Positions 19,447 through 47,112 of a stretch of 64,000 nt of DNA are shown here, in pieces (position 1 is the first letter of the stretch; each line of letters begins with the position of its first letter). The position numbers and the translations under genes were made by a program. This stretch comes from an uncultured archaeon (lineage in GTDB: Archaea; Aenigmatarchaeota; Aenigmatarchaeia; PWEA01; JAGHBM01), in NCBI GenBank assembly GCA_964640225.1, contig CAZXFI010000001.1, forward strand, positions 51,507 through 115,506, read 5' to 3'. Below the pieces are notes generated by a model, which saw nothing but the letters and a program-made list of their open reading frames with translations, was not told where the DNA came from and did not search any database.

Positions 19447-20394
19447 ATGAAAGAAATAGCCGAGTTTTTGAAGAAAAAGGACAATTACCTGATACTAACG
19501 CACCACAACGCTGACGTTGACGCCGTGGCTTCGGCCGTTGTTCTGAGGGACTCCCTGGTCCGTATGGGCAAAAAGGCAAGAGTCGGTGTTCCGGAAAGCG
19601 TGAGCGAGGTGGCCCGCAACTTTCTCAGGGAGGAGCTGGAAACTGACCCGGAGGTAAGGGATGAAAAAATAATAGTGGTTGACACCTCGGCCCCGGAGCA
19701 GCTTGAACCCGTGAAAATAGAAAAAGCTGACGTGGTTATAGACCACCATATTCAGGGCAACATAAAATCCGGGCTTTCTTACGTGGAACCCGAGGCAAAA
19801 TCCTGCTCCGAACTGGTCTACATGCTATGCGGGGAAATGGGAACGGAAATAACCCCGGAGATGGCAACCCTTCTCACCGGGGGGATTATATACGACACGG
19901 CCCACTTCAGGAGGGCCGGCCCCGAGACGTTCGTACTTGTGGCTGAACTTCTTAAGAAGGCAGACCGGGATTACCAAAAAATACTTAGCATGCTCAGGAC
20001 CGAGACCGACATCTCGGAGAAGATAGCGATTTTCAAGTCAATGAAAAGGCTCAGGACCTACAGGGCTGGGGAGGCCCTGGTCTGCATCACCTCGGTAGGC
20101 TCCTTTGAGGCCTCCGTGGCCCGGAACCTTCTGAGGCTGGGAGCGGACGTGGCCATAGTCGGCGCCCCGAAGAAAAAGGGGCTCCGCATATCAGGCAGGA
20201 TGAACTGGGCTCTCAGGGAGAAGCTGAATCTTGCGGAAATCTTTGCCAAAACCGAAACCCTGATAGGAGGCTCTGCCGGGGGGCATGACGTGGCGGCCTC
20301 CGCGAACGGCAAGAATCCGGAGAACATGGGCAAGGCGCTGAACCTGATACTCAGGGAAATAGAAAACAGGTTCGGAAAAGCAAAAGAATTATAG
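19447..20394 (+). CDS. DHH-DHHA1 family phosphoesterase (NrnA-like nanoRNase/pAp phosphatase)
   Basis: LILTHHNADVDAVASAVV, VVIDHHIQG and GGGHDVAASA are DHH, DHH and GGGH motifs. Confidence 0.7.
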   Translation: MKEIAEFLKKKDNYLILTHHNADVDAVASAVVLRDSLVRMGKKARVGVPESVSEVARNFLREELETDPEVRDEKIIVVDTSAPEQLEPVKIEKADVVIDHHIQGNIKSGLSYVEPEAKSCSELVYMLCGEMGTEITPEMATLLTGGIIYDTAHFRRAGPETFVLVAELLKKADRDYQKILSMLRTETDISEKIAIFKSMKRLRTYRAGEALVCITSVGSFEASVARNLLRLGADVAIVGAPKKKGLRISGRMNWALREKLNLAEIFAKTETLIGGSAGGHDVAASANGKNPENMGKALNLILREIENRFGKAKEL

Positions 20395-21129
20395 GTTTTT
20401 CACCTTTCCCAGATAGGTCCCATCCAAAAGGTAAACGCCACATTCTTTGGTCTTTATAACCCCGTTCTTCATGATGGGCCCCAGCTCCGAGCCCTCCCTG
20501 TTCACAGGAAGGCCGCCCACCAGGGGATTGAACGCGGGCACCACAACAGCTTCCCTTGTTTCTCCCTTCTCCCCGTACTTTTCCGCAACCTTCTTCCTGT
20601 CCAGCCTGCACCTAAGCCAGCAGGGCTCTATTGAGCGGAATCCCAGCGAGTCGCGGAATTCCACCGCGGGGTGGGAGTGCCCCCTTACCAGAACAAAGGC
20701 CTTCAGCAGCTCTTTGCCTGGCCAGCTGTGCCCGTGGTTGAAGAAGTATTCACCGGACCTGAAGCCGGAAGAAGGATGAACGCGAACCTTTTTCGGGGCT
20801 ATTTTTTTGATGTTGCCGTCATGGTTTCCTGGGCACACGTGGACCTCCAGCTCTTCGGACAGCTCCTCCAGGAAAACGGGTACTTCCCTTTCCTCCTGCC
20901 TGCTTATCCCGTAAAAGTCGTGCTTCACGTCTCCCAGGAGCACCAGCCTGCCGCACCCGTTGCCCGAGGCAAGCTTCAGTATTCTGTCCCTTATCTTCCC
21001 TATGTTTGAAATGACCGTAAAACCTGACCTGTAGAACTCGCTCTCTATTCCCAGGTGAAGGTCCCCCACGACGAGAGTCCCGTCTGCCACAAGGGCCGGC
21101 TCGCCTGTTATGAACTTCATGAAAACCAC
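20389..21129 (-). CDS. Calcineurin-like metallophosphoesterase
   Basis: [28 protein letters not shown] and RGHSHP motifs. Confidence 0.6.
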
Positions 21130-21161: not shown

Positions 21162-21905
21162 ATGTTTAAATTGGTTCTTCTGAGGCACGGGGAAAGCGTC
21201 TGGAACAGGGACAACCGCTTCACCGGGTGGACTGACGTGGGGCTCAGTGAGAGAGGCGTTAATCAGTCCAGGGAAGCCGGCAGGATTCTCAGGGAAAACG
21301 GGTTCACCTTTGACATAGTTTTCACCTCGGTGCTCAAGAGGGCTATGAAAACCACGGAACTTGTCCTTGAGGAAATGGGCCTGGACGTGCCTGTTGAAAA
21401 GTCATGGCGCCTTAATGAAAAACATTACGGGGCCCTGCAGGGATTGTACAAAAAAAAGACTGCAGAGGAGGTCGGAGAAGAACAGGTCCACAAGTGGAGA
21501 AGGTGCTATGACGTCAGGCCTCCGGCGCTGGAAAAAAGAGACAACAGGCATCCCGCGAAAGACCCGCTTTACAAGGGCTTGGATGAAAAGGATTTGCCCG
21601 CAACGGAGTGCCTGAAGGACGTGGTGGAGAGGTTTCTGCCCTACTGGCACGAAAAGATAAAGCCCGCAATCAAATCCGGAAAAAAGGTTCTTGTTTCGGC
21701 GCACGGCAACAGCCTCCGGGCCCTGGTGAAGCATCTGGATAAAATACCGGACAAAAAAATCGCGGAACTGAACATACCGGTAGGGGTGCCCCTGGTGTAC
21801 GAGTTGGATGACGAACTTAAACCATTGAGACACTACTACCTGGGCGACCAGGAAAAAATAAAGAAAATGGTACAAAGCACGGAAAACGAAGCAAAGATTA
21901 AATAG
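21162..21905 (+). CDS. gpmA: 2,3-bisphosphoglycerate-dependent phosphoglycerate mutase
   Basis: [29 protein letters not shown] and [13 protein letters not shown] are dPGM catalytic His motifs. 247 aa. Confidence 0.85.
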
Positions 21906-21934: not shown

Positions 21935-23443
21935 ATGAGCATAGGCACAGTCATATCAACGCAGGACGGGCCGAGCGTCTCCTCTTTCAGCTTCGTTATA
22001 AACGAGGACGGGCCCACGGCAAAGCAGGGCCAGTTCGTCACGCTGAAAACCCCCGAGGGCACCATGGTGGCCAGAATATGCGACATTTTCAAGTCCAACC
22101 GCTATTTCCAGAGGGCAGAAAGCGTTCGTGAGTACGAGAAATCGGGGAAAAGGATGTCCGAGATTTTCCCTGTGGAAAGGTGGGAATATCTCATAGGCAA
22201 GGCCAAGCCCCTTGCGGTTTTCTCCGGGTCGCTTTTCCAGAGGCCGTGTTTTCCTCCCTCGCCGGGGGACTCCGTGGAGCTCGCATCAAGCGACGTTTTG
22301 TCGGAATTCATAGGCTTTGACACGAAAGGAATGGACATAGGCAAGATAAACTTTCATGACGTGCGGGCCAGACTCAGCCTTACGAGGCTCCTGCAGAAGC
22401 ATCTGGCCATTCTGAGCATAAGCGGAGGGGGGAAAAGCTACCTGACTTCGGTGATAATAGAGGAACTGCTGGACAGGAAGCCCGAGGACGGACAGGTCGC
22501 CACGATTATAATAGACACCCACGGCGAGTACATAGGTTTCGCCGAGGACGGGAATTACAGAGACAGGGTTTCCGTGGTTACCGGGAAGGACTTTAAGATA
22601 GGGGTGCCCGGGCTTTCCGTATCGCTTCTCTCTCATTTCATACCGGACATGACGCATGTCCAGGAAAGAGAGTTGAGAAGGATACTCAGCGACGCAAGGC
22701 AGACCATGAAAGGCAGGGCCTACGATTTGAACGACATAATAAGGATGGTGGCGGAGGATGAGAAGGTGAAGAGCTCCACCAAGGACATACTGATAACGAT
22801 ACTTTCCCACCTGCGGGGCACGGGCTTCTTCGGTGTCGGGGACAATCCGAGCCTTGACACCCTTGCAAAGCAGGGCCACGTTACGGTCATAGACGTCTCG
22901 GACATAACGTCACTAAGGAAAAGGCAGATGCTTGTCTCCTACCTGGGCAGGAAGCTTTTTGATGCCAGGACCGAGAACAGGATTCCGCCCTTTGTTTTCA
23001 TAGTGGAGGAGGCCCACAACTTCGCCCCCGAGGGAGTCAAGCGGGAGGCCGCGCTGAGCAAGGGCATCATAGAGAAAATAGCAAGGGAAGGCAGGAAATT
23101 CCATGCCTCGCTGTGCCTTATCTCGCAGCGCCCGATTCAACTGTCCACCACGGCGCTTTCCCAGTGCAATACACACATAATCCTCCGAGTAACGAACCCT
23201 TACGACCTGGACCACATAGGAAAGAGCTCCGAGGGGCTCACGAGGGACGTGCTGGACACGATATCCTCGCTGAGGGTAGGGGAGGCCCTGATAGTCGGGG
23301 AGGCCGTGAACTGTCCGGTGTTCGTCAAGGTAAGGAAAAGGAAATCCGTGAAGAGCGAAAGGGGGATGCCGCTTGAGGAAGCGGCCGTGAAGTACCACAA
23401 GGAGCGCGCGGAGAAAAGCAGCGATGCCAGGAGTTTTATGTAA
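21935..23443 (+). CDS. herA: HerA-like (DUF87/FtsK-HerA superfamily) ATPase
   Basis: N-terminal HAS-barrel-like segment. Walker A SISGGGKSYLTSVI and Walker B VFIVEEAHNFAP. About 500 aa, as for HerA. Confidence 0.7.
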   Translation: MSIGTVISTQDGPSVSSFSFVINEDGPTAKQGQFVTLKTPEGTMVARICDIFKSNRYFQRAESVREYEKSGKRMSEIFPVERWEYLIGKAKPLAVFSGSLFQRPCFPPSPGDSVELASSDVLSEFIGFDTKGMDIGKINFHDVRARLSLTRLLQKHLAILSISGGGKSYLTSVIIEELLDRKPEDGQVATIIIDTHGEYIGFAEDGNYRDRVSVVTGKDFKIGVPGLSVSLLSHFIPDMTHVQERELRRILSDARQTMKGRAYDLNDIIRMVAEDEKVKSSTKDILITILSHLRGTGFFGVGDNPSLDTLAKQGHVTVIDVSDITSLRKRQMLVSYLGRKLFDARTENRIPPFVFIVEEAHNFAPEGVKREAALSKGIIEKIAREGRKFHASLCLISQRPIQLSTTALSQCNTHIILRVTNPYDLDHIGKSSEGLTRDVLDTISSLRVGEALIVGEAVNCPVFVKVRKRKSVKSERGMPLEEAAVKYHKERAEKSSDARSFM

Positions 23444-23576
23444 CCGGAAAGTATAAATAATAACAGTGTTATATATTATTGCTCGCCTTTGAAAGGAATT
23501 TAAATAACTTTTGCCACATAATATAATGGCCATGTGGCCGAAAAAGCCACAAAATGCCCCTGAAGAGGTGAGTTAG

Positions 23577-23801
23577 GTGTGCGAAATATACAAAGATTCG
23601 TTAAGACCTGTTTCTTCGGACGAGATGCTGTTCCGCGATGAAGACGGGGAAATTAAAGTATACAACAAAGGAGAAATTTACGGCTGGGTGGCGAGACGTA
23701 GCCCGGATGGTGTGAAAATAGGACTCAGCGAGTATGACCCAAGGGTACAGGAATACATCAAAAAGCATATAGACAGCGAAGATATAGTTGAAAGAAAATA
23801 A
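23577..23801 (+). CDS. Hypothetical small protein (GTG start), in AT-rich island
   Basis: ORF-track entry. SD-like GAGGTGAG upstream. No recognisable domain. Confidence 0.3.
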   Translation: MCEIYKDSLRPVSSDEMLFRDEDGEIKVYNKGEIYGWVARRSPDGVKIGLSEYDPRVQEYIKKHIDSEDIVERK

Positions 23802-23849
23802 ACGAAAAATAAGATGGCGCTTTAATATTTTGTTTTAGGTGGGGGTTGA

Positions 23850-24644
23850 ATGGATAACCCAAAAATAGAATTTGATAGCTTCTATGAGGACTGGCAAAAA
23901 AACTTAGGCATGAAATTCAAGAGAGATAAAAACTACTTAATGGACCTTCTTATGCCGGATAGGAAACTTGTCAAGATATACGAGTCCATAAAGGAACTTT
24001 CTCTGGGCAAATTCGCCAGTTATATCAAAGACTCCGGTAAAGACGAAATAAACGTGGAAGACCTCATAAGCCTTTACTCGCTTGAAAAGAAGCTGAACAA
24101 CGGCGACGGCTCCAAGAGTTTGAAAACTATTGAAATGAAAAACCTGATGGAAGAATATTTTGACACGCAAATAGAGCTTCTGGGATTCGGAAAAACCAAC
24201 GAAAAACTGGAACTAACGGAACCTAAAAGTATAGGAAACAAGAAGAACCTTGAAAGGGCTTACCAAAACGTAACTAATTTTACCAATGAGTTCAAAAAAT
24301 ACACAAACTATTTGAAAAACAAACTACAACCCGTTGAAAAAAATCTTCAAAGCAAAATAGAATGTTATGAAAACAAAATAAAAGAATACGACATGAACCT
24401 AGAAGAAAAGCAATCCCACCCCTTCAAGAGAATTGAGAAGAAGAGGGAAGACACAGAAATCGACAAGAAGGGAGCGGAAATTGAGAAGAAGGAATACGAA
24501 CTAATTCTCCAGAGAATTAACGGCTCCATAGAATACATGCATAACGAAAGGAAAAGGGAAATAAAAAACATAATAGCCCATTTGGAAATAGATAAAATGG
24601 ACAGAACCAGAAATAAAGAAAGCCAGCAAATAATGTACGGCTAA
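23850..24644 (+). CDS. Hypothetical Lys/Glu/Asn-rich protein in AT-rich island
   Basis: 264 aa. Codon usage is AAA/GAA/AAT-rich, unlike the neighbours. No recognisable domain. Confidence 0.4.
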   Translation: MDNPKIEFDSFYEDWQKNLGMKFKRDKNYLMDLLMPDRKLVKIYESIKELSLGKFASYIKDSGKDEINVEDLISLYSLEKKLNNGDGSKSLKTIEMKNLMEEYFDTQIELLGFGKTNEKLELTEPKSIGNKKNLERAYQNVTNFTNEFKKYTNYLKNKLQPVEKNLQSKIECYENKIKEYDMNLEEKQSHPFKRIEKKREDTEIDKKGAEIEKKEYELILQRINGSIEYMHNERKREIKNIIAHLEIDKMDRTRNKESQQIMYG

Positions 24645-26659
24645 TTATAGGGACTGCCGACCAGCCTTACGTGCGTGGGCTCGTTCTTCTCTCTCTTCCT
24701 TTCCAGCCTGTAAAGATATCCGGTAACAGCGCTCTCCAGCTTCTCGTCGTGGGTTATCAAAAACACCTGGTCCACGAACTCGCCGACCCTGGTCCTGAGG
24801 ACCTCGGCCAAATACTCCACAGCCTGCGAATCCAGGTTGTGCGTGGGCTCGTCCAGCACCAGCCACTTCAGGTTGGGAGCCAGCACCAGAGCGAACGCAA
24901 TCCTCAGGGCAAGGCACGCCGTGGTCCTCTCGCCCCCCGAGGCAATTCCCTCAACCGTGACCCAGCTTCCCCGGGATTCCTTGAGCTCCAGGCTGTAATC
25001 GCCCTCATTCACGGAAAGCCTCAGGTTGGTCAAATCCTCGTAAGGGTACAGGTACTCCCATATCCTGTCCATGGTGAAATTCACGGCATCCACGAATTCT
25101 CTTCTCAGGGTTACCTGGGTTTCCTTCAGGGCCTTTTCAAATTTTTTCAGTTCCTCCGAAAGGGCCTGCATCTTTTTTACCTGCTTCCTGTAACTCTCAA
25201 AAAGCTTTTTCTTTTCCTCCACGCCTTTAAGCTGCTCCTCTCTTTCCTTCAGCAGCCTCCGGTTGTTTTCCAGGTTTGCCCCCAGTTCGCTGCATCTCCC
25301 GTAAAGCTCCTGCAGTCTTTTCTGCAGCTTCTCCGCCTTCTCCTTGCCCGCGGCTTTCTTTTTTTCCTCCAATTCCTTCTCCAGCCCATGAAGCTTTTTC
25401 TTGTACTCAACCAGTTTCTTTTTCTTTTCCTCCTGCTCCTTTATTTTTTTCTCCATGCTACCCAGTTCGTATAATTCCTCTTTTGCCCGGTCTATTTTTT
25501 TCTTCAAGGTCCGGTTTTTCTCTTCCAGCTCCTCCAGCTCCTTCCTTGTCTTTTTCATCTCCCCTTCTTTTTTCCTGATTTCCTCCTTGCTCTTCTTTAT
25601 TATTTTTTCCTTGTGCGACTTTGTGAGCTTTTTTTCGCAGACAGGGCATTTCCCTTCCGCGGGCTTGAGGCTTTCTATCCTTTCCACCAGCTCCTTTATG
25701 GAAACCCTGCACCCGCTTTCCTTTTCCAGGGCTTCCCTGATTTTTTTCCGGTTCTCCTCCAGTGCCTTCTCTTCTTTCTCCAGCTCATCCTCAGCCTTTT
25801 TAATTTTTTTCGCGATTTCCTTGCCTGTTTCCAGGTTCCTGAAAGTTTCCAGGTCCTCGGAAAGATTCTTCACGGCTCCCGTAAGCACGTCCAGCTCCTT
25901 TTCCTTTTCCTTAAATAGACTTGCCTTTTCCTTTTCCTTTTCATAATCCTTCTCCAGCTTTTCCTTTTCCTTCCCTGCCTTGCTTCTTTCCTCCTCCAGC
26001 TTTTCCTGCTCTTTCTCCAGTCCCCTTATCTCTTTTTCCAGCTCCCCTATCTTTCCGAAATCCTCCTTGTCCTCCATCTCTCCGATAAGCTTTGTCTTGT
26101 CCCTTACGTTGTCCCTTATCCTGTTGGCCAGCGTGGTGGCGGAAGACCTGGCGCTTTCAAACTTATCTATCCTCAGGAGCGCGTCAATCTTCCTCATCCT
26201 CTGGCCCCTGGGTATGGTGAGAAAAGAATCCAGCCCGTTCTGCTCCGAGTAGATGGCGCGGGAGAAAAGGTCGTAGTTTATTTTGAGGGCCTTCTCCACC
26301 AGCTCGGTGACCCTTGAAGAGCCCGTGTCCAGCAGGATCCCGCCCTTCCTTATCTCCGCCTTCGTGGTGCCCTTGCCCCGCTCCACGACTCTCTTCACCG
26401 TATACTTTTCCCCGGCCTCAAACGAGACCTCCACCTCGGCTTTCTCCCTGACCTGCGGCCTGTTCATTATAACGTTGTCCAGCGTAAGCTTCCTTGCCTG
26501 GAGCGCGGGAAAGGTCCCGAAAAGCGCGAAGCTTATTGAGTCAAGCAGGCTGCTCTTCCCGGCCCCCATCACTCCTATAAGGGCGTTGGTGCCCTTTGAA
26601 AAGGAGAACTCCGAATCCCAGTGGCTCCTCCAGTTTTTCAGCTTTACATCACTAATCAT
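24641..26659 (-). CDS. rad50: DNA double-strand break repair Rad50 ATPase; start taken at internal Met (MISDVKL) to avoid overlap with mre11
   Basis: Walker A GVMGAGKSS. Long coiled coil with a CPVCEKKL zinc hook. C-terminal signature and D-loop LVLDEPTHNLD. Confidence 0.85.
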   Translation of the reverse strand: MISDVKLKNWRSHWDSEFSFSKGTNALIGVMGAGKSSLLDSISFALFGTFPALQARKLTLDNVIMNRPQVREKAEVEVSFEAGEKYTVKRVVERGKGTTKAEIRKGGILLDTGSSRVTELVEKALKINYDLFSRAIYSEQNGLDSFLTIPRGQRMRKIDALLRIDKFESARSSATTLANRIRDNVRDKTKLIGEMEDKEDFGKIGELEKEIRGLEKEQEKLEEERSKAGKEKEKLEKDYEKEKEKASLFKEKEKELDVLTGAVKNLSEDLETFRNLETGKEIAKKIKKAEDELEKEEKALEENRKKIREALEKESGCRVSIKELVERIESLKPAEGKCPVCEKKLTKSHKEKIIKKSKEEIRKKEGEMKKTRKELEELEEKNRTLKKKIDRAKEELYELGSMEKKIKEQEEKKKKLVEYKKKLHGLEKELEEKKKAAGKEKAEKLQKRLQELYGRCSELGANLENNRRLLKEREEQLKGVEEKKKLFESYRKQVKKMQALSEELKKFEKALKETQVTLRREFVDAVNFTMDRIWEYLYPYEDLTNLRLSVNEGDYSLELKESRGSWVTVEGIASGGERTTACLALRIAFALVLAPNLKWLVLDEPTHNLDSQAVEYLAEVLRTRVGEFVDQVFLITHDEKLESAVTGYLYRLERKREKNEPTHVRLVGSPYN

Positions 26660-27920
26660 GCCTGCCACCTGACCACGCAAGGAGGTTCTTCCTCCCGGGC
26701 TTTTCCTCGCTTTCTTTCTCAAAAAACTCCTTTACATTCTCTTCCTCGCCGGACTCTTCCGCGCCCTCCGTCTCCCTCTCGGACGGCTCTCCCGCGGCTT
26801 CCCGGGATTCACCTGAAAGAAGGTGCACCATGGCCGAATCCACGCTGCCCTCCACCAGGAGGTCAAAAATTTCCTCGTATTTGGCCGAAATCCCCAGCTC
26901 CTTCATGTTCTCCCTCAGAATGCGGAAGCCCATCTCCTCAACGCTTATCCTGCTTTCCCTTATGTCCTTCAGCAGCTTCATCTTGCTCTCCATGGCCTCG
27001 TCCGAAACCCTTGATGAGACAGACAATATCATTCTTTTCCCGTGCTTTTCCTTTACGGGAGAGAAATCCAGCTCCTTCCCCTTTTCCAGCCTTCCGGTTA
27101 CCCTTATCCTGACAAGGGGCTTCTTTTTCTCCTTTATTCCCTGCAGGTAAGTGTCAATCTCCTCCATTACGTCACCCCCAAGCTTGAACTCCCTGTAGAA
27201 AACCTTCCTGGGGGACTCCAGCTCCACGAACTCAATGCCTTTTTTCGTGTCCACTATGTAGAATCCCTTGGGGAATTTTGCCTCGGTCTTGTTCACCTGG
27301 GTGGTTACGGTGGAACCCGGTATTATGAATGGCTTTCCCATGACCTCGGTCTTCTCGGGCCAGTGTATGTGCCCCGACACGTAAAGATCAAACCCCTCCG
27401 GCAGGTCCTCCAGCTTCAGGGAAGGAGGTTCCACCGGGTTGTAGATGTAGGGCTGTATGGACTGGTGAAGCATGAATATGTTGTAGCCCTCCGCGGGCTT
27501 CGGGTTCCACTGGAGAAGCACCTCCTTCGCGTAGGCCTCGGGCACCCCGCTCATTCCGTGGACCGTGATTTTCTCGCCCTTTATCTCGTAGCTCTCGGAC
27601 TCGCAGTGCAGGTGCTTCAGGAATCCCGCGTGCTCCAGCCCCTCCACGCAGTTTATGAGCCCCTTGCCTCTTCTTTCGTGCGTTCCGTGTATTGCCGCCA
27701 CGGGAATTTTCAGCTTTGAAAAAATAGCTAGGGCCCCTGCCCAGTCCTCGGGCCTCGGTATTTTCTGGTCAAATATGTCCCCGGGCAGGATTATCAGGTC
27801 GCAGTCCCTGGCCTTCCCGAAGGCCTCCTCAGCGGCCTCCCAGCAGTCCCCAGACCTTTCTGTGTCCCTTCCGAAACCGAAGTGAAGGTCAGAAATAACA
27901 GCTATTCTTGCCAACAACAC
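26652..27920 (-). CDS. mre11: DNA double-strand break repair nuclease Mre11
   Basis: IAVISDLHFG, ILPGDIFD, GTHER and GHIHW phosphoesterase motifs. Acidic C-terminal tail. Immediately upstream of rad50. Confidence 0.85.
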   Translation of the reverse strand: MLLARIAVISDLHFGFGRDTERSGDCWEAAEEAFGKARDCDLIILPGDIFDQKIPRPEDWAGALAIFSKLKIPVAAIHGTHERRGKGLINCVEGLEHAGFLKHLHCESESYEIKGEKITVHGMSGVPEAYAKEVLLQWNPKPAEGYNIFMLHQSIQPYIYNPVEPPSLKLEDLPEGFDLYVSGHIHWPEKTEVMGKPFIIPGSTVTTQVNKTEAKFPKGFYIVDTKKGIEFVELESPRKVFYREFKLGGDVMEEIDTYLQGIKEKKKPLVRIRVTGRLEKGKELDFSPVKEKHGKRMILSVSSRVSDEAMESKMKLLKDIRESRISVEEMGFRILRENMKELGISAKYEEIFDLLVEGSVDSAMVHLLSGESREAAGEPSERETEGAEESGEEENVKEFFEKESEEKPGRKNLLAWSGGRHD

Positions 27921-31064: not shown

Positions 31065-31121
31065 ATAAGATAGGAGGCCCTGAAAACATTTAAACCTTTA
31101 CTCCACAAAACTTATTTCATG

Positions 31122-31324
31122 GGCCCGTGGCGTAACCGGATAACGCGCTCGGCTTCGGACAAGCTTTTTAGAAAAAAGCTTGAGCAAAAACACGGAAACA
31201 GGGGAAACCGAGAGACTGGGGGTTCGAAAACAAAAACCTTTTGGAAAAAGGTTCTTGTATCTCCAAAACCTGGAAACGCAAAGCGTTTCCCAGTGGGGAA
31301 CGAAATTCCCTCCGGGCTCACCAA
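31122..31324 (+). tRNA. tRNA-Arg(TCG) with two introns (anticodon loop 31161-31208 and T-loop about 31230-31307); CCA encoded
   Basis: Hand-folded. Acceptor GGGCCCG/CGGGCTC, D-stem GCGT/ACGC, anticodon stem CTCGG/CCGAG with loop CTTCGGA, T-stem GGGGG/CCCTC with loop TTCGAA-T. Confidence 0.6.
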
Positions 31325-31485
31325 CAAATCCTTTTTTAGAAAAAGGCTTTGTAATTTGGAACAAGGTTCCAAGATTCCCAAAAACCTGGAAAAGCCCTGC
31401 TTTTCCCAAATAAAACGTTTAAAAGCATTTGAAAACACAAAATAAAGGTAAGTTGAAGCACATGAAATGTGCTTATTTTCAATTT

Positions 31486-31653
31486 GCTCCCATAGTCTAG
31501 TGGCCAAAACTCAAGGAGTTTTGTACTCCAGCAATAATGCTGAAGTGGCCAAGGATGCTGGCCTCTCGTAAGCTTTTTGGGAAAAAGCTTAAGCAAAAAC
31601 CAAAAGCTTTAAGAAAGCCAGAGACCGGGGTTCAAATCCCCGTGGGAGCACCA
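31486..31653 (+). tRNA. tRNA-Glu(CTC) with two introns (D-loop about 31508-31552 flanked by duplicated AGTGGCCAA; anticodon loop 31570-31616); CCA encoded
   Basis: Hand-folded. Acceptor GCTCCCA/TGGGAGC, anticodon stem CTGGC/GCCAG with loop CTCTCGT, T-arm CGGGG-TTCAAAT-CCCCG. Confidence 0.65.
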
Positions 31654-31677: not shown

Positions 31678-33468
31678 CTAATCTCCGGCCCACTTCCAAC
31701 TCTTAGAGCCCTGGGAGCCAAGCCCGAACAAATTCAATGCCTTGTTAAAGAAATCAACTATTGTGTTGTAGAACTCGTCCAATGGATTATAGCTTTTTTC
31801 AGAATATCCCACTCCGCCTCCTCCACCGCCCCCGCCACTGCCTCCGGATGTGGTTGTAGTGGTTGATTCGGATAGGGACGTAGTGGTGAACGTGGAGGTA
31901 GAAGTTGTGGAAGAAACGATCGTAGTTTCAACAGTAGTTGTCTCTGCGGTAGAAGAGGAAGACGTAAAGACAGTAGACGTGGAAGAGGTAGTTGTGCATA
32001 TTGTGGTGGTGGAACCTCCAGACAATGGCGCGAGCGAGGGTCCAAGATCGCCCGGAGCGCCGGTTTTTCTTTCACTGTACCACTGGTTCCATGTCCTGTA
32101 TCCGGTGTTTACCCCGTCTGTATCAAAAACCTGCACGGTGCCTCTACGATTTAAACCGCCTATGGATTTAACCCCCATTCCAACTATTTCATTTAATCCG
32201 TCATTGTCAATGTCCTGGACTATCATCTGGTTCAAATAAACATTCAAATCCTGTTTTATATCAAAATCATGGGCGCCCGGATTCCACTGGTAAATGACCA
32301 ACCAGCCCCGGTTTAATCCGCTGGTAAATCCTATAAGCTCCATTTCATTGCCATTTCCGTTTTGCCACACGTTCCCAATGGCAAGAGGGTGGCTGTAACC
32401 AACTCCGCTTGCAGCCCAAACAGGGGAGTAATCCTCCATTTTCCAGTCTCCCAAATCAAAAATATCAGCGCCACTGTTTTTGTTGTTGTCGCCGCTAATC
32501 AGTTCAAGATTGCCGTCTCCGTCAATGTCGTAGACATTGTTATTGTCATGGGCGCCGAAATTTGGTATATTCTCCTGCCACTTTCCAGTCATCGGAGACA
32601 TTGTTGAGCCGTCGACAACGCCTATACCGTCACCGGCCTGGTCTGTTATTACCACATCTAAAACTCCGTCACCGTCAACATCCACTATTGTTGAACAGTG
32701 ACTGCTGCAATATATGGATTTCCATGCATGCATTATGTTCAAACTACTGTCCAGTTGCATCAAACCGTTGCAACTATCACCGCCACTGCCTCCCCTGTCT
32801 GTGTCAAATATTTCAACAGTCCCGTCACCATCCAAATCCCAGCCTGTAAATCCCCCGTGGCAAGTGTGGCAGGCGACCGGCTCCGATTCTATTATTGCAC
32901 CGTCCGTGCCCCTGAATTTCATTACCGGAGAAACGGCACCGTTGCCTGACACGTAAATGTAAACTGTTCCGGCCTCCTTTAAAAGCAGGGGGTGCTTGTC
33001 TTTTCTCCCGTGGGTGGTTGGATTGTTGTGATTGGGGTCATTCCAGTAATCCCATTTCATAGTGCCTGATTCGGCCTCAAACACCGCGACCTGGTTCATA
33101 CCGCATGCGACCAGCTCAAGCTTCCCGTCCTGGTCCACATCGCCAAGTTCCACGACGGTATGACGGCCCAAACCGTTGCTTGTATAAACCCATTCCAAAG
33201 CCCCTGTCTGCCCATCCAAGCATATCACGAAACCTGGATGCGGCTCGCCGCTTCCTGCATCTGTTCCACCGGCCTGGAATATTTCGTGGTATCCATCGCC
33301 GTCCACATCCGCAGTAACAGGCAACGTGCTGCTGCTGTACGAAGAGGACAATCCTGTATGCACAGACGTGTCTGTATACCACTTTAGAGAAATGTCTGCA
33401 TTTACAGGAACTGCCATGAAAACAATCATAACAACAGGAAGTAGCTTGAGATATCTCGTTTGCCGCAC
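31678..33468 (-). CDS. Secreted FG-GAP/beta-propeller repeat protein with C-terminal Ser/Thr-rich stalk
   Basis: N-terminal signal peptide LLPVVMIVFMAVPVNA. At least six D-x-D-G-D-G FG-GAP-type calcium-binding motifs. Near the C-terminus a roughly 60-residue S/T run, then GGSGGGGGGGG. Confidence 0.7.
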   Translation of the reverse strand: MRQTRYLKLLPVVMIVFMAVPVNADISLKWYTDTSVHTGLSSSYSSSTLPVTADVDGDGYHEIFQAGGTDAGSGEPHPGFVICLDGQTGALEWVYTSNGLGRHTVVELGDVDQDGKLELVACGMNQVAVFEAESGTMKWDYWNDPNHNNPTTHGRKDKHPLLLKEAGTVYIYVSGNGAVSPVMKFRGTDGAIIESEPVACHTCHGGFTGWDLDGDGTVEIFDTDRGGSGGDSCNGLMQLDSSLNIMHAWKSIYCSSHCSTIVDVDGDGVLDVVITDQAGDGIGVVDGSTMSPMTGKWQENIPNFGAHDNNNVYDIDGDGNLELISGDNNKNSGADIFDLGDWKMEDYSPVWAASGVGYSHPLAIGNVWQNGNGNEMELIGFTSGLNRGWLVIYQWNPGAHDFDIKQDLNVYLNQMIVQDIDNDGLNEIVGMGVKSIGGLNRRGTVQVFDTDGVNTGYRTWNQWYSERKTGAPGDLGPSLAPLSGGSTTTICTTTSSTSTVFTSSSSTAETTTVETTIVSSTTSTSTFTTTSLSESTTTTTSGGSGGGGGGGGVGYSEKSYNPLDEFYNTIVDFFNKALNLFGLGSQGSKSWKWAGD

Positions 33469-37577: not shown

Positions 37578-38659
37578 TAATTTCCTGTTCTCTGAAAATC
37601 AGTCCATAAATTCCTTGCCCAGTATGTTTTCCCTGTAATCCCTGATTGCAAAGGGTTCCACTGAAATGCTTTCCTGCATGTAGTATATGTTCACCAGGGC
37701 ATTGCTTTTTAATTTCTTTTCTTCGGGCGGTATGCTCATGGACCGGATTTTTTCCAAATCTCTGTTGAGTATCTCTTCCGGATATAATTCCATTGTATTC
37801 CCTTTAGTAGTTGGGAAGAAAAAGATTTAAACCCGTTCTGTATCAAAAGGGGTTATTTCTGGCTCCGTTAAAACTCGCTCCCGGAGCCTTATGGAGCCAC
37901 TTGAATCCAGTCTGTCTGAAATATATCTTGCCGGAGAGATATCTTTATATCCCGAATTCTGCGATAGAGAATCGTCAAACTGGAACGGAGGTGGGGTGGG
38001 ATGGCAATCAAGAAAAAGAAGAAGGTAAACAAAGAGATGGAAGAATAGACGGCAGATACTTTAGGCTTATTTTTTTCTTTTTTTTTATTTTAACATTTCA
38101 TTTCCTTTACACGGCTTCTGATCCTGTCCATTCCAACGTAAACCCTGTCGGGAGCGTCGCAAAGCACCGGCTCTTCTCCGGACTCCCCGCCGTAATGGCA
38201 AGGCGCGTACCTGTTTATCTCCCTTAAAAGTCCCTTCATCTCCGGATTCATTTCCCCGAACAAAGTGAGCGCAGGGCCGGTTTTCCTGCCCATGAAAAAT
38301 ATTGGGTGAGGGAAAATTTAAATTTTTGGATTTAGCCGATGTAGCTGACGTCCCTGCGGGGAACCTTTTTCTTCTGTTTCTCCACGGCTTTCTGGAGCTT
38401 TTCTATGAGGGATTCCACCTGGGGCAGCCGCATGTGTATCTTGGTGAGCTTCTCCTTTCCCTTAGGGGTGGAGCCCAGAAGCTCTATGTAGAACATGTCC
38501 CTTTTCCATTTTATTGAAAATCCCTTTACAAGAACCATGGGTTATTATTCGGGGAAGAATTATTTAAATGCCTCCCGCAAAACCTGTTCGGGAAAGAAAG
38601 TTAGGGAAAAACCGAACAAAATAAGCAGTTTTTTATTTGTCCCTGTCCTAAAAATTAGC

Positions 38660-41951: not shown

Positions 41952-42548
41952 TTATTTCTTCCTGGCCTTTTTGGACTTGGGTTTTTTCTTTTTCCCAAGC
42001 CTGACCAGCTTCTTAAGCTTTTTCTTTTTCCTTTCCTTTCTTTTTTCCATTCTCATCTCCCTTACGACCCTGCTCCTCTCAAGAAGTATTATGGTCAGCC
42101 TGCTAATCTTGTAGCGGAAAAACAGGTATATTGAAAAATATAGTACAAGGAATCCTGCAAAAGAAAGCGCCATGTAGGAGTAGTTGAATTTCGTGACGAA
42201 GGTGAGAAATATGGCGCCCAGAGAATACACGGTCAGGGCTATGGCAATCGTGTTCCCCTTGTTCTCCAGGTACTCCTCCCTCAGCTCCCTGTACTCGTTT
42301 ACCTGCTCCATTTTTCCCAGTTCCCTTGAGACTTCCTCGTTCGTGTGGAGAGGCTTGCCCCTTTTTACAAAGCCCGTAATGAGTATCTCCGCCAGAAGTA
42401 CCACTACCGCGGTCTCTATGAAAGTCCAGCCGTTTGAATTCAGGAAAAGAACCACAAGGAAAACTGCGAGAACCATGTAGAAGACCAGAAAATTGAATAT
42501 CTTCCTTTCCCTTGATACAAGCTCCTCTATTCTCCCTATCCCCACCAT
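41952..42548 (-). CDS. Polytopic membrane protein with poly-basic C-terminal tail
   Basis: Four hydrophobic helices. The C-terminus is KRKERKKKKLKKLVRLGKKKKPKSKKARKK. Confidence 0.4.
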   Translation of the reverse strand: MVGIGRIEELVSRERKIFNFLVFYMVLAVFLVVLFLNSNGWTFIETAVVVLLAEILITGFVKRGKPLHTNEEVSRELGKMEQVNEYRELREEYLENKGNTIAIALTVYSLGAIFLTFVTKFNYSYMALSFAGFLVLYFSIYLFFRYKISRLTIILLERSRVVREMRMEKRKERKKKKLKKLVRLGKKKKPKSKKARKK

Positions 42549-42579
42549 GAATAAAATAGGTTTTTTGGCTTTAAAAGCA

Positions 42580-42981
42580 TTAGATTCTGTCAGCGAATAT
42601 GTATTTTTTCTTTACCACAAAGGCCGCGAGCAGGCACAGAATAAACTGGGCCACGTAAAGCATAAAATTCTGCAGGTTGAATATCTGGGACTCCAAAAAA
42701 ATGAAAAGCACGCCGTAATCCATGAGGATATGTATTATTATGAATACTATGCCGAAGGCCGGGCCCTCAAGCCACTCAAACCTCTTTATCTTTCTCATGT
42801 ATACGAAGGCGGCCGCGAAAGTCCCTGCCGCCGCGAAAACCATGTAGTTGTGCATCCACAGCTCGGTGCTTCCCATCAGGGACAGGGTGAGAACCGCCTC
42901 CAGAAATATGAAGAGCCATACCAAAACCGCCAGAAGTATGGCAAGGCCCCAGTTGCTGAGGAATTTCCTCTCTTCTATCAT
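42580..42981 (-). CDS. Small polytopic membrane protein
   Basis: 133 aa with four hydrophobic segments. ORF track. Confidence 0.4.
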   Translation of the reverse strand: MIEERKFLSNWGLAILLAVLVWLFIFLEAVLTLSLMGSTELWMHNYMVFAAAGTFAAAFVYMRKIKRFEWLEGPAFGIVFIIIHILMDYGVLFIFLESQIFNLQNFMLYVAQFILCLLAAFVVKKKYIFADRI

Positions 42982-43045
42982 ATTGATATTATAGGGAGAT
43001 AGACTTAAAAAGTTTTTAAATGTATTGTGCCATAACTATAGTTAT

Positions 43046-44960: not shown

Positions 44961-45263
44961 AGACTATTATTGTGCGCGCTCCATATAAATGGTTCCAAGC
45001 CAGGCAATAGTTTAAATATGTCCGGGTTGAAATATTTTTGGTGATATTATGGAGACCTACAGAGGCTTGGAAATTCTTAAGCGGCCTGAAGTGTCTGCCA
45101 GGGATGTGGAGTACGTAAAGAAAACACTTGAATCCGGGAATTTCACGCAAGAGGTCAAGGACGGCGTGCTGCACATCTATCCCAGGGAGCAAACCAGCTT
45201 GGAAAAAGCTTAAACAGTTAACGGGCCTGATATTGGCTTCAGTTTATATTCTTTCCATTATTT

Positions 45264-45464
45264 CTATTCCTTGTATTTTATCTTCACAATCAGGGCCGCT
45301 ATGAACCCCATGGCCAGGCCCAGGAAGGGTGCTATGTCCCACCTTCCGTAGAAAGCTCCCAGCGCCATCCCCAGGAAGAAAAATCCCACGAAAGCCGTTC
45401 CGAACAAGTCCTTATCCTTGAACTTCTTTGCCATACATATTTTAGAATTGGTTAAATAAAACAT
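45264..45464 (-). CDS. Small two-helix membrane protein
   Basis: 66 aa, hydrophobic. ORF track. Confidence 0.3.
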   Translation of the reverse strand: MFYLTNSKICMAKKFKDKDLFGTAFVGFFFLGMALGAFYGRWDIAPFLGLAMGFIAALIVKIKYKE

Positions 45465-45520
45465 AATTCCGGGTTTTCAGGGAGATTTTTGCAAAATCGG
45501 CCTTATTGCCCTGTGGAAAG

Positions 45521-45529
45521 ATATATAAA
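45521..45529 (+). promoter_or_regulatory. Archaeal BRE/TATA-like element (GGAAAG-ATATATAAA) upstream of the small zinc-ribbon gene
   Basis: TATA-like octamer about 90 nt upstream of ATG 45616. SD AAGGAGGT at 45601-45608. Confidence 0.3.
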
Positions 45530-45615
45530 GGTTCGGTTATTAAGAATAATATCAATACCATAGAAGAGGGAACTTTTTCTCTTGTATGTTATTTGACTAA
45601 AAGGAGGTTTAGACA

Positions 45616-45780
45616 ATGGGAGATTTTAGGAGAGGCGGCTTCAAGAAAAGCTTCGGCCCTAGGGAAATGCACAAGGCAGTTTGTTCTGACTGCGGCAAAG
45701 AGTGTGAAGTTCCGTTCAAGCCGACAGAAGGCAAGCCTGTTTACTGCAAAGATTGTTACATGAAAAAGAAGAAGTGGTAA
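45616..45780 (+). CDS. Small zinc-ribbon protein (54 aa), not in ORF track
   Basis: MGDFRRGGFKKSFGPREMHKAVCSDCGKECEVPFKPTEGKPVYCKDCYMKKKKW. Strong SD AAGGAGGT lies 8 nt upstream. CxxC-x16-CxxC. Confidence 0.5.
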   Translation: MGDFRRGGFKKSFGPREMHKAVCSDCGKECEVPFKPTEGKPVYCKDCYMKKKKW

Positions 45781-45873
45781 TTCTTTATAGGATTATTTTA
45801 CATTTTTATTTTATTATTTTTCAATAAAAAGGGATTAATGCTTAATTTATTCTAACCAGGCCAAATACTACAC

Positions 45874-47112
45874 ATGGAAGTCTTCAAAGCTTTCTCCGAA
45901 GAGGTCAACGGCCCGGAAGGGAAAAAACTCGGGGAAAATATTTCAAAACTGACGGGAAAGCCGGACCTGGTTATATTGTATTTCACAATAGAGCATTCAG
46001 GGGAAGAGGACGTGAGGGCTTACCTGGAAAAAATCCGGGAAAGCCTTCCTGAAGGAACCGTGCTGGCGGGGGTTTCCGTTGCCGCCTTCAAGACCAACGA
46101 AAACAGGCTCATACGAACCCAAGGGGGAGTGGCCATAATTCTGAAGGGAATTCAAGTTAAAGCCAACCGGCTGGAGAAGAGTATATGGAACGCGAGCGTG
46201 GATGAGGTAAAAAAAGTGTACATGGAAAATTCAGGCAGTGGCTCTTTCAACTTCATCTTCTGCTGCGGGCCGCGGCAGAGCAGGAAGGAATCCGTTGTAT
46301 GGAAGTACGCGCAAAAACAGGCAATCAAGGCCCTGAAAATACCCCTCTTAAGGGAAAAAATAATTAACATGACTCTGAAAAGGGCGTGGAAAGACAAGAT
46401 AGGTTACCCTCCCGGATATTTCGGGCTCAATTCCCTTGCGTCCGGGGGCAGAAAATTCCTTTGGAACGACTCGGTTGACGGGGGCTCCTGGACGAAAGGT
46501 TACGAGATCCTGAACACGAAAATTTTCAATTCCGAAACACTCATAAATGTTTCCCTGAGCCCTGCTTCAAATATCAAGGTTTTGGAAACCCTCCCGCTGA
46601 CAGACGAGAATATGAAAAAACTGGACGTGGTAAGGGAGTACAAAAAGGTGGATTATTACAAGAGTGTTATATACGGCCTTGACGGGAAATCAATCAGTAG
46701 CGTTAGGGAAGAGCTGCCGGTGGCTACAAGAAGGCTTGAAAGGGGCGGATTCGGTTACTACGGAATTTTTGTTTCAAAAAAAAGGAGAATACCGCTTACG
46801 TTCGGTAACATAGACGTGATTCCCCTGGAGTTCCTGGTGGAGGAGCCAGGGAAAGTGCTTATAGTAAGGGCCGAGGGCCTGGGGGACTACAAGGAAAAGC
46901 TGGAGAAAAAAGTTGAGAGCCTGGACAGAAACAAGCTGGTGCAGGTGAACATCCACAGCTCCGTTATAAATTTCTTCGGGGAAAAGATGGAAAAGGTAAT
47001 GGACTCCCTGAACGGGAAACTAAATAACTGGGTGGTTATTATAGGGGACAATTTTTATTGTTCAAAAGGCAGCCAGAACTTTTTTTATCCCGTTATTGTT
47101 ACTTACGGTTAA
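45874..47112 (+). CDS. Hypothetical protein (weak FIST-domain-like N-terminus)
   Basis: 412 aa. PDLVILYFTIEHSGEE and GVSVAAF resemble FIST_N, but this is not conclusive. Confidence 0.35.
   Translation: MEVFKAFSEEVNGPEGKKLGENISKLTGKPDLVILYFTIEHSGEEDVRAYLEKIRESLPEGTVLAGVSVAAFKTNENRLIRTQGGVAIILKGIQVKANRLEKSIWNASVDEVKKVYMENSGSGSFNFIFCCGPRQSRKESVVWKYAQKQAIKALKIPLLREKIINMTLKRAWKDKIGYPPGYFGLNSLASGGRKFLWNDSVDGGSWTKGYEILNTKIFNSETLINVSLSPASNIKVLETLPLTDENMKKLDVVREYKKVDYYKSVIYGLDGKSISSVREELPVATRRLERGGFGYYGIFVSKKRRIPLTFGNIDVIPLEFLVEEPGKVLIVRAEGLGDYKEKLEKKVESLDRNKLVQVNIHSSVINFFGEKMEKVMDSLNGKLNNWVVIIGDNFYCSKGSQNFFYPVIVTYG

What the first reader, a model, noticed from the sequence alone, without database searches (positions are those of the whole stretch)
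23445..24650. AT-rich, compositionally atypical 1.2 kb island inserted between herA and rad50
The segment carrying ORFs 23577..23801 and 23850..24644 is markedly AT-richer than its flanks, judged by eye from the sequence. It uses AAA/GAA/AAT/TTG codons, where the rest of the window uses AAG/GAG/AAC/CTG and AGG. It sits in the convergent gap between herA and rad50-mre11, a site that in other archaea holds nurA. Both ORFs lack recognisable domains. One is a 74-aa protein with a GTG start. The other is a 264-aa K/E/N-rich protein. It is a candidate for horizontally acquired cargo, for example a defence, anti-defence or addiction module.
Basis: seen in the sequence. Interest (0 to 1): 0.5.

Follow-up and report, generated by a model that had tools for sequence, protein, structure and literature searches.

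The report
Fast-evolving orphan gene pair beside HerA
The AT-rich stretch is real, but it is an old two-gene unit of unknown function with its own conserved promoter, kept at the same spot in a DNA-repair gene cluster in several related Aenigmatarchaeota, and not a recently imported island.

Summary
Window 23445-24650 has 37% GC against 50% for the window. It is the lowest of all 1.2-kb windows (z = -3.6). Both ORFs use AT-ending codons beyond what their amino acids require: orf264 GC3 is 0.475 against 0.66 expected (z = -7).

The small+large pair sits in the same HerA -> [small][large] <- Rad50-Mre11 slot in five other lineages (L022, L003/P0007, L025, L004). These are Aenigmatarchaeota relatives whose HerA is 81-86% identical. 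In each genome the pair is AT-richer than its flanks, whether the locus is 37% or 50% GC. Four-fold synonymous sites between these genomes are near saturation, so the AT-richness is maintained and is not a donor relic.

The proteins evolve fast (28-58% identity). They have no homologues outside this slot among 1.8 billion representative proteins, and no Pfam, NCBIfam, PADLOC, PHROG or PDB match. orf264 is modelled as all-helical with a long helical hairpin, so it is not NurA. A 120-nt promoter/operator/leader block upstream is as conserved as coding DNA.

The slot itself is volatile: L005 carries unrelated small genes there. The most likely function is a non-enzymatic accessory pair of the adjacent repair machinery. 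That function is inferred, not shown.

The parts
23459..23473 (.). Near-perfect palindrome AATAACA-G-TGTTATA, a candidate operator for a dimeric transcription factor just upstream of the promoter
   Evidence: It is TATAACAGTGTTATA in L003 and L025 and TATAACAGCGTTATA in L022. It is also kept in L005, where the downstream genes are different. The only other match in the window with up to 3 mismatches is a weaker one (2-3 mismatches) at 46657-46671.
23492..23507 (+). Archaeal-type promoter: purine-rich BRE-like AAAGGAA followed by TATA box TTTAAATA (23499-23506)
   Evidence: Read directly from the sequence. The TATA box is invariant or near-invariant in L022, L003, L025 and L004. The promoter role is inferred from the archaeal consensus, not measured.
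23526..23576 (+). Conserved leader of about 50 nt with a 5' hairpin (GGCC 23528-23531 / GGCC 23536-23539) and Shine-Dalgarno GAGGTGA (23565-23571). It can also be read as a 16-codon upstream ORF (ATG 23526, TAG 23574-23576) whose stop abuts the GTG of orf74.
   Evidence: The 120-nt block from palindrome to start codon is 67-79% identical to L022, L003 and L025, while four-fold sites are 22-39% identical. The hairpin arm changes GGCC/GGCC to GACC/GGTC in relatives. Folding z-scores are only -1 to -3. No Rfam match. The uORF frame is not preserved between relatives, so the conservation is at nucleotide level.
23577..23801 (+). orf74: small acidic protein, first cistron, GTG start
   Evidence: Orthologues are P0003/L022 (80 aa, 56-58% identity), L025 (157 aa, N-terminal 73 aa 37% identical, E 2e-13), P0002 (95%) and L003 (66 aa, weak). 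The N-terminus MC[EK]I..S[LI]RP is conserved from the first codon, which supports the GTG start. The AF2 model is unusable (pLDDT 51).
23850..24644 (+). orf264: K/E/N-rich all-helical protein, second cistron, preceded by GGTGGGGG. Its stop overlaps the Rad50 stop by 4 nt.
   Evidence: The family has six lineage-level members in public data: window/P0001, P0004, P0005, P0006, P0007, P0008. Conserved motifs are LL[MI]P, LISLYSLEKKLNNG, ELLGF and FTNEF. AF2 gives pLDDT 68.7 and pTM 0.67, with helices 10-34, 38-49, 91-110 and a long hairpin 131-185/192-250. There is no specific fold match.
21935..23443 (+). HerA-type ATPase: conserved upstream neighbour, same strand
   Evidence: PF01935, E 5e-27. 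The best NCBIfam models are the DSB-repair HerA ones, all far below their cut-offs. It is 81-86% identical in L003, L004, L005, L022 and L025.
24641..27920 (-). Rad50 (24641-26722) and Mre11 (26652-27920): convergent downstream neighbours
   Evidence: They are 60-69% identical in relatives. The tail-to-tail 4-nt overlap with the large slot gene recurs in L003, L004 and L022.
20389..21129 (-). SbcD-related / PdeM-like phosphoesterase, part of the conserved backbone next to HerA
   Evidence: TIGR00024 at 101 bits (cut-off 115) and PF00149. It lies next to HerA and is transcribed divergently in L003, L004, L005, L006, L007, L008 and L022.

Best explanation
The AT-rich segment is a self-contained two-gene operon, orf74 then orf264, driven by its own conserved promoter, palindromic operator and leader. 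It is an ancestral, vertically inherited, clade-specific part of a DNA-repair locus in one genus- or family-level clade of Aenigmatarchaeota (DPANN archaea). That locus runs phosphoesterase - HerA - [slot] - Rad50 - Mre11.

The two proteins evolve several times faster than their neighbours. Their AT-richness is a steady-state property with two sources. One is a K/E/N/I-rich, helix-forming amino-acid composition. The other is weak use of the GC-ending codons that the conserved genes prefer, most simply explained by relaxed codon selection. It is not a leftover of foreign origin.

Mechanism (inferred). orf264 is a non-enzymatic helical-bundle / coiled-coil protein. With the small acidic orf74 it acts as an adaptor or regulator of the neighbouring HerA and/or Mre11-Rad50 machinery in a locus that shows no NurA. 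Its expression is controlled separately from herA through the palindromic operator and the structured leader.

Shown: composition, synteny, rates, fold class, conserved regulatory block. Inferred: binding partners, regulation, function.
For: Synteny.
- Both genes are in the same slot and orientation in L022 (80 aa + 264 aa), L003 (66 + 262), L025 (157 + 241) and L004 (151 + 199, divergent).
- The HerA tree puts all carriers in one clade with 100% bootstrap. L022 and L004 branch first, with weak support.
- The backbone DHH - phosphoesterase - HerA - slot - Rad50 - Mre11 - ProRS is conserved.

Rates.
- HerA 81-86% identity, ProRS 71-76%, Mre11 67-70%, Rad50 60-69%.
- Small gene 32-58%, large gene 28-51%.

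Maintained AT bias.
- GC3 of the pair against its flanks is 0.45-0.475 against 0.70-0.72 in the window. It is 0.29 against 0.63-0.77 in L022, 0.27-0.30 against 0.47 in L003, and 0.27-0.35 against 0.36-0.40 in L004.
- Four-fold sites are 22-39% identical, against 18-33% expected at random.

Real, selected genes.
- The ORF length is far beyond chance.
- Motifs and lengths are conserved.
- The upstream block is 67-79% identical, like HerA coding DNA at 74-77%. It occurs only once in the 64-kb window and nowhere else among the loci fetched.

Restricted to this context.
- Only 4 relatives among 1.84e9 representative proteins, plus 2 more by profile search.
- Every one with known context is downstream of HerA.

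Fold. All-alpha with a long helical hairpin.

No NurA. No NurA was found in the 35 window ORFs scanned against Pfam, 10 of them also against NCBIfam.
Against: - The functional link to HerA / Mre11-Rad50 rests on gene neighbourhood alone.
- A partner that contacts an 85%-conserved HerA would not be expected to drift to 28-51% identity.
- L005, whose HerA is as close as L003's, carries unrelated genes in the slot. L006, L007 and L008 carry yet other small genes. The repair genes therefore do not strictly need this pair.
- The orf264 model is only moderately confident (pLDDT 69, from 4 sequences) and the orf74 model failed.
- NurA could be encoded elsewhere in the genome; only 64 kb were seen.
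- 'Relaxed codon selection' is one of several possible causes of low GC3 and was not tested with expression data.
Confidence: 0.55

Rival explanations
1. Variable-hotspot cargo. The HerA/Rad50 spacer is a recombination-tolerant slot where small accessory genes turn over, for example a toxin-antitoxin-like or defence / anti-defence pair. orf74+orf264 is simply the occupant that this sub-clade inherited, with no functional tie to the repair genes.
For: - Slot content differs between lineages. L005 has 82 + 79 aa, unrelated by hhalign. L006 has 103 aa, L007 about 37 + 72 aa, and L008 132 + 176 aa on the other strand.
- Whatever sits there is AT-richer at third positions than HerA in every genome.
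- The small-then-large bicistron behind a palindromic operator is the layout of type II toxin-antitoxin modules.
- The pair evolves fast.
Against: - No match to any PADLOC, Pfam, NCBIfam or PHROG model.
- No paralogues or copies in any other context in about 1.8e9 representatives or in viral contigs.
- No mobility hallmarks.
- The palindrome is kept in L005 although the cargo differs. It is therefore unlikely to be the operator of a cargo-encoded autoregulator.
- The pair has been stably inherited through a divergence that saturated synonymous sites.
Confidence: 0.25
2. One reading: a recently acquired foreign island, not yet ameliorated, inserted into this genome between herA and rad50.
For: Lowest GC in the window and deviant codon usage. 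No homologues with known function.
Against: - Orthologous pair at the same place in at least four other species-level lineages.
- The same AT offset in each of them despite near-saturated synonymous sites.
- An upstream regulatory block conserved like coding DNA.
- No repeats, tRNA or integrase.
- No donor-like homologues anywhere.
Confidence: 0.04
3. orf264 is a highly diverged NurA nuclease occupying the usual partner position next to HerA.
For: Position next to herA in a herA-rad50-mre11 cluster. No NurA was detected among the window ORFs scanned.
Against: - The model is all-alpha, with no beta-sheet core of the RNase-H-like NurA fold.
- No Pfam NurA signal even at E <= 1.
- Among the columns invariant across the family alignments the only acidic residues are glutamates (E79, E101, E246), with no aspartate.
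Confidence: 0.03
4. The ORFs are non-functional or only nascent: young genes born from AT-rich spacer DNA, with the coiled-coil prediction a by-product of K/E-rich sequence.
For: Orphan status, low-complexity K/E/N-rich C-terminal half, AT-rich like intergenic DNA, very fast divergence.
Against: - Intact ORFs of similar length in six lineages across saturated synonymous divergence.
- Sharply conserved N-terminal motifs.
- A conserved promoter, Shine-Dalgarno sequence and leader.
Confidence: 0.08

Closest known systems
herA-mre11-rad50-nurA DNA end-resection operon of thermophilic archaea (Sulfolobus, Pyrococcus); from general knowledge
   Same: HerA (PF01935), Rad50 with zinc hook and Mre11 phosphoesterase are clustered. 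An extra gene lies next to herA.
   Different: No NurA was detected. The genes next to herA are a 74-aa protein and an all-helical 264-aa orphan without nuclease features. herA and rad50-mre11 are convergent rather than co-directional. An SbcD-related phosphoesterase is the conserved divergent neighbour of herA.
HerA-associated anti-phage pairs (SIR2-HerA, DUF4297-HerA; PADLOC and NCBIfam 'anti-phage-associated helicase HerA')
   Same: A HerA-family ATPase is followed on the same strand by a partner gene of different fold. The partner evolves fast.
   Different: The partner has no SIR2, DUF4297 or other effector model hit. HerA scores higher with DSB-repair HerA models (170 and 151 bits) than with anti-phage HerA models (119 and 106 bits), all below cut-off. 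HerA sits in conserved housekeeping synteny.
CtIP/Sae2/Ctp1-type cofactors of eukaryotic Mre11-Rad50; from general knowledge
   Same: Non-enzymatic-looking coiled-coil protein, very fast sequence evolution with a few short conserved motifs, and an association with Mre11-Rad50 (here by gene neighbourhood only).
   Different: No sequence or fold similarity was found. There is no functional evidence. This is an analogy, not membership.
Type II toxin-antitoxin operons
   Same: A small first gene and a larger second gene, close spacing (overlapping in L025), and a palindrome just upstream of the promoter.
   Different: No known toxin or antitoxin family or fold. One copy, one context, no mobility. 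The palindrome persists with different cargo in L005.

Membership tests
NurA nuclease (Pfam NurA domain) | Sequence match to the NurA profile | tested here: not met
   No Pfam family at E <= 1 for orf264 other than Exonuc_VII_L at E 0.89, and none for orf74. NCBIfam: none.
NurA nuclease (Pfam NurA domain) | RNase-H-like alpha/beta core with conserved acidic catalytic residues | tested here: not met
Horizontally acquired genomic island | Composition and codon usage deviating from the host genome | tested here: met
   GC 0.37 against 0.50 (z = -3.6). GC3 z = -7 for orf264 and -4 for orf74 after controlling for amino acids.
Horizontally acquired genomic island | Absent from the same locus in close relatives | tested here: not met
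   Orthologous pair present in L022, L003, L025 and L004. Only L005 differs.
Horizontally acquired genomic island | Mobility hallmarks: integrase or transposase, tRNA target, flanking direct or inverted repeats | tested here: not met
   No tRNA in the whole window. Only short chance-level repeats. The slot holds nothing but the two ORFs.
Horizontally acquired genomic island | Homologues in other taxa, contexts or mobile elements (a plausible donor pool) | tested here: not met
   Only six lineage-level members, and all with known context lie downstream of HerA. None in IMG/VR viral contigs. No BFVD fold match.
Known anti-phage defence systems (PADLOC-DB 2.0) | Match of the candidate effector to a defence-protein model | tested here: not met
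   orf74, orf264 and the orthologues have no hit. The one exception is a spurious LmuB coiled-coil hit for P0004 at E 0.012.
Type II toxin-antitoxin module | Bicistronic small+large operon with a palindromic operator | tested here: inconclusive
   The layout fits. However, the palindrome is retained in L005 with unrelated cargo.
Type II toxin-antitoxin module | Toxin or antitoxin belongs to a recognised family or fold; typically multi-copy and patchy | tested here: not met
   No family hit. Helical-bundle fold only. One copy and one context.
Archaeal HerA / Mre11-Rad50 repair cluster (context, not the two ORFs) | HerA, Rad50 (zinc hook) and Mre11 (metallophosphoesterase) encoded together | tested here: met
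   Conserved in L003, L004, L007, L008 and L022.
Archaeal HerA / Mre11-Rad50 repair cluster (context, not the two ORFs) | NurA encoded in the cluster | tested here: not met
   No NurA in the 35 window ORFs scanned. The rest of the genome could not be examined.
Rfam RNA families (for the conserved leader) | Covariance-model match | tested here: not met
   Nothing at gathering score in the window. Nothing meaningful at E <= 10 in 23300-24800.

The most novel reading that the evidence does not exclude
In this NurA-less DPANN clade, orf74 and orf264 form a clade-specific, non-nuclease cofactor pair of the HerA ATPase and/or Mre11-Rad50. This would be a fast-evolving coiled-coil adaptor functionally analogous to CtIP/Sae2-type factors. 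It would be switched on through a conserved palindromic operator and a structured, possibly uORF-containing, leader that is not in Rfam. If so, it is a new kind of accessory subunit for archaeal DNA end resection and a new cis-regulatory element.
Probability: 0.15. Interest if true: 0.65.

Novelty: new variant of a known kind. Interest (0 to 1): 0.3.

Why it matters
As posed, a foreign island, the finding is largely explained away. That is a useful caution: strong AT and codon deviation can be a stable, inherited property of fast-evolving lineage-specific genes rather than a mark of recent transfer.

What remains is modestly interesting. It is a variant of the archaeal herA-mre11-rad50 cluster in reduced DPANN genomes. 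No nurA is detectable nearby, an SbcD-related phosphoesterase is the constant neighbour of herA, and a volatile slot holds orphan helical proteins under a strongly conserved regulatory block. If those orphans do work with HerA or Mre11-Rad50, they would show how end resection is organised in archaea without NurA.

Tried and rejected
1. Word-indexed homology search with orf264 found only itself. The exhaustive HMMER search and a profile search were needed to find the five other members.
2. Pfam, NCBIfam, PADLOC, PHROGs and PDB sequence searches, single-sequence and profile, gave nothing beyond coiled-coil noise. Examples are 6tik at E 2.4e-4 on the helical hairpin and SOSS-B1 at E 0.3 on the C-terminal extension of the L025/L004 small proteins.
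4. The AF2 model of orf74 had pLDDT 51 and was not used.
6. A viral-contig scan with the orf264 profile found nothing. The orf74 profile was too variable to scan with.
7. A metagenome scan with the pattern palindrome + TATA returned 100 stretches. None encodes HerA, orf74, orf264 or Mre11, so they are chance hits.
8. Rfam found no family for the leader or anywhere in the window.
9. RNAalifold on five leaders gave only a 7-bp hairpin with no double compensatory change counted, partly because the window's shorter loop misaligns. Single-sequence folds have z-scores of -1 to -3. An RNA structure is therefore not established.
10. Thermoplasmata HerA loci (L010-L021) were checked as a source of NurA neighbours. 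Their neighbours are unrelated genes.
11. Population variation could not be used: L001 and L002 are 100% identical to the window, and L023 and L024 are 100% identical to L022. No pN/pS was possible.
12. Literature searches (HerA/NurA/DPANN; Aenigmarchaeota/Rad50/Mre11) found nothing relevant.
13. The orf264 tree and the HerA tree are both poorly resolved inside the clade, so congruence can be neither shown nor rejected.


Full report
**1. What is at the coordinates**

The window carries HerA at 21935-23443 (+). Next come a 133-nt spacer, a 74-codon ORF with a GTG start (23577-23801, "orf74"), a 48-nt spacer, and a 264-codon ORF (23850-24644, "orf264"). Rad50 (24641-26722) and Mre11 (26652-27920) follow on the minus strand. 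orf264's stop overlaps the Rad50 stop by 4 nt. Both ORFs are preceded by GGTG-type ribosome-binding sites.

**2. The composition claim is true**

- The segment 23445-24650 has 37.1% GC against 49.8% for the window. It is the lowest 1.2-kb window of all (z = -3.6).
- orf264 has GC1/2/3 of 0.40/0.21/0.475. HerA, Rad50, Mre11 and ProRS have GC3 of 0.70-0.72.
- I kept each protein sequence and redrew codons from the window's own usage. Expected GC3 is 0.66 for orf264 (observed 0.475, z = -7) and 0.655 for orf74 (observed 0.452, z = -4).
- About half of the GC deficit comes from the K/E/N-rich protein and half from codon choice.
- AAA and GAA are indeed preferred. AAT and TTG are not.
- Three other genes in the window (31112-31507, 31678-33468, 37811-38227) deviate as much or more. 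This is a class of genes, not a single anomaly.

**3. It is not a recent insertion**

Relatives found through HerA are Aenigmatarchaeota MAGs. Six of them, counting the window, form a HerA clade with 100% bootstrap support and 80-88% identity.

| Locus | Slot content between HerA and Rad50 | Identity to the window pair |
|---|---|---|
| L022 | 80 aa + 264 aa | small 56-58%, large 44-46% |
| L003 | 66 aa + 262 aa | large 35-40%, E 1e-26 or better |
| L025 | 157 aa + 241 aa | small 37%, large 38-44% |
| L004 | 151 aa + 199 aa | divergent (see below) |

- L004 is linked by hhalign at E 9e-4 over the LL[MI]P...EK.LNNG region. BLAST also links it to the L025 proteins at E 2e-4 and 2e-3.
- In L022 the whole neighbourhood is collinear with the window: exosome genes, L37ae, prefoldin, DHH, phosphoesterase, HerA, the pair, Rad50, Mre11, ProRS.
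- L022 and L004 branch first in the HerA clade, with weak support. The simplest history is therefore that the pair was already present in the clade's ancestor.
- No tRNA, integrase or meaningful flanking repeats are present.

**4. The AT-richness is inherited as a property, not as a relic**

| Genome | GC3 of the pair | GC3 of flanking genes |
|---|---|---|
| Window | 0.45-0.475 | 0.70-0.72 |
| L022 | 0.29 | 0.63-0.77 |
| L003 | 0.27-0.30 | 0.47 |
| L004 | 0.27-0.35 | 0.36-0.40 |

- Four-fold degenerate sites in conserved codons of HerA, Rad50, Mre11 and ProRS are only 22-39% identical between these genomes. The random expectation is 18-33%.
- Synonymous sites are therefore close to saturation, and any donor signature would long since have been erased.
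- The bias must be renewed in each lineage by gene-specific forces. These are the protein's composition plus weak use of the GC-ending codons favoured in conserved genes.
- The same offset holds for the unrelated genes that fill the slot in L005, L006, L007 and L008.

**5. The genes are real and selected, but evolve fast**

- A 264-codon stop-free run has probability of about 1e-9 at this composition.
- Lengths, order and motifs are conserved: LL[MI]P, LISLYSLEKKLNNG, ELLGF and FTNEF in the large protein, and MCKI..SIRP, GEIYGW and SEYDP.VQEY in the small one.
- Identities to the window are 28-51% for the large protein and 32-58% for the small one. The neighbours stand at 60-86%.

**6. A strongly conserved regulatory block**

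The 120 nt upstream of orf74 are 67-79% identical to L022, L003 and L025. That is as conserved as HerA coding DNA (74-77%) and far above the near-random synonymous sites.

The block holds these elements:
- a palindrome, AATAACA-G-TGTTATA (23459-23473);
- a conserved GCTCGCC;
- a textbook archaeal TATA box, TTTAAATA (23499-23506), behind a purine-rich stretch;
- a leader of about 50 nt with a hairpin whose arms change together, GGCC/GGCC in the window and GACC/GGTC in relatives;
- the Shine-Dalgarno sequence GAGGTGA.

It occurs once only, in this slot, and matches no Rfam family. The palindrome survives in L005 although the downstream genes there are different. That points to a host regulator rather than a cargo-encoded one. 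RNA structure in the leader is suggestive only.

**7. What the proteins are not**

- No Pfam, NCBIfam, PADLOC or PHROG family, and no PDB sequence relative.
- The exhaustive search of 1.84e9 representative proteins found only three relatives besides the query. A profile search added two more. All those with known context lie downstream of HerA.
- Nothing in viral contigs.
- The AF2 model of orf264 (pLDDT 68.7, pTM 0.67) is all-helical, with a long antiparallel hairpin at 131-185/192-250.
- This excludes a diverged NurA as far as a moderate-confidence model can. The orf74 model failed.

**8. The slot is volatile**

- L005's HerA is 85-86% identical to the window's and nests inside the clade with 65% bootstrap support.
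- Between HerA and the Rad50 3' end, L005 has two unrelated AT-rich genes of 82 and 79 aa.
- The outgroups carry other small genes: L006 one of 103 aa, L007 about 37 + 72 aa, and L008 132 + 176 aa on the other strand.
- So the pair is ancestral to one clade but replaceable. This keeps a "hotspot cargo" reading alive as the main rival.

**9. Most likely mechanism**

The features that bear on function are:
- constant placement next to herA;
- the tail-to-tail overlap with rad50 in all carriers;
- a separately regulated promoter;
- a non-enzymatic helical fold;
- no NurA among the 35 window ORFs scanned.

From these I favour a clade-specific adaptor or regulator of the HerA / Mre11-Rad50 machinery. 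The constant divergent neighbour of herA is an SbcD-related phosphoesterase. It is a candidate nuclease partner in place of NurA.

All of this is inferred from context. My confidence is about 0.85 that the unit is ancestral and vertically inherited rather than recently imported. It is about 0.3 for the functional tie to the repair proteins.

**10. Verdict**

The horizontal-transfer interpretation is largely refuted. What remains is an uncharacterised, narrowly distributed orphan operon with a notably conserved control region, inside a NurA-less variant of the archaeal end-resection cluster. Interest is modest.

Noticed in passing
window 21162-21905 (+): A histidine-phosphatase / phosphoglycerate-mutase-like gene (PF00300, E 1e-35) sits between the SbcD-related phosphoesterase and HerA in this window only. 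tblastn finds it in none of the relatives' loci, where phosphoesterase and HerA are direct divergent neighbours or are separated by other genes (L005, L008). Its codon usage is normal (GC3 0.645). This is a better candidate for a window-specific insertion than the flagged segment.
   Followed up: partly
window 20389-21129 (-), and next to HerA in L003, L004, L005, L006, L007, L008, L022: An SbcD-related / PdeM-like metallophosphoesterase (TIGR00024 at 101 bits against a cut-off of 115) is the conserved neighbour of HerA across Aenigmatarchaeota. No NurA was detected in the window. It may be the nuclease partner of HerA in this lineage.
   Followed up: partly
window 23526-23576 (+): The conserved leader can be read as a 16-codon upstream ORF (MAMWPKKPQNAPEEVS). 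Its ATG lies about 27 nt after the start of the TATA box, so the mRNA could be leaderless. Its TAG stop directly abuts the GTG of orf74. The ATG is kept in L022, L003 and L025, but indels shift the frame, so the conservation is at nucleotide level.
   Followed up: partly
L005 9541-10138: The relative CP070662.1 keeps the palindrome (TATAACAGCGTTATAT) after HerA. It then has a different promoter region and two unrelated AT-rich ORFs of 82 aa and 79 aa. The 79-aa product contains an LDKLEERGLI stretch that, by eye, resembles a winged-helix recognition region. The Rad50 3' end and an assembly gap of Ns follow.
   Followed up: partly
C-termini of the orf264 family (window 24633-24641; P0004-P0007): Five of six family members end in a penultimate aromatic residue...MYG...SYA...MFA...GYA...GYV. 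This recalls HbYX-type docking tails that insert into ring complexes. It is pure pattern observation.
   Followed up: no
window 31112-31507, 31678-33468, 37811-38227 (also 42493-43002, 45506-45763): Other ORFs have GC3 well below expectation (z = -7 to -11 for the first three). They include a 596-aa FG-GAP-like protein. The genome appears to have a class of low-GC3, probably fast-evolving or surface-exposed genes.
   Followed up: partly
L025 1382-1855 and L004 9631-10086: In two lineages the small slot protein is about 150 aa, not about 75 aa. It carries a shared C-terminal extension (36% identity over 44 aa, E 2e-4). That extension gives weak, non-significant profile hits to the OB-fold SOSS-B1 / hSSB1 (E 0.3). 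In L025 it overlaps the large gene by 23 nt.
   Followed up: no
window 24641-24644 and the equivalent sites in L003, L004, L022: The large slot gene and rad50 overlap tail-to-tail by 4 nt in all carriers, leaving no intergenic terminator. The A-rich sense strand of orf264 (AT skew up to +0.49) reads as T-rich in the rad50 direction. Convergent transcripts must therefore overlap or terminate inside each other's coding sequence.
   Followed up: no
window 44961-45873: This is the second-lowest-GC stretch of the window (about 0.40). It has no long ORF, only several small ones. One is a 54-aa CxxC...CxxC zinc-ribbon protein (45616-45780) and one a 66-aa hydrophobic protein (45264-45464, minus strand). 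No Rfam family matches.
   Followed up: no
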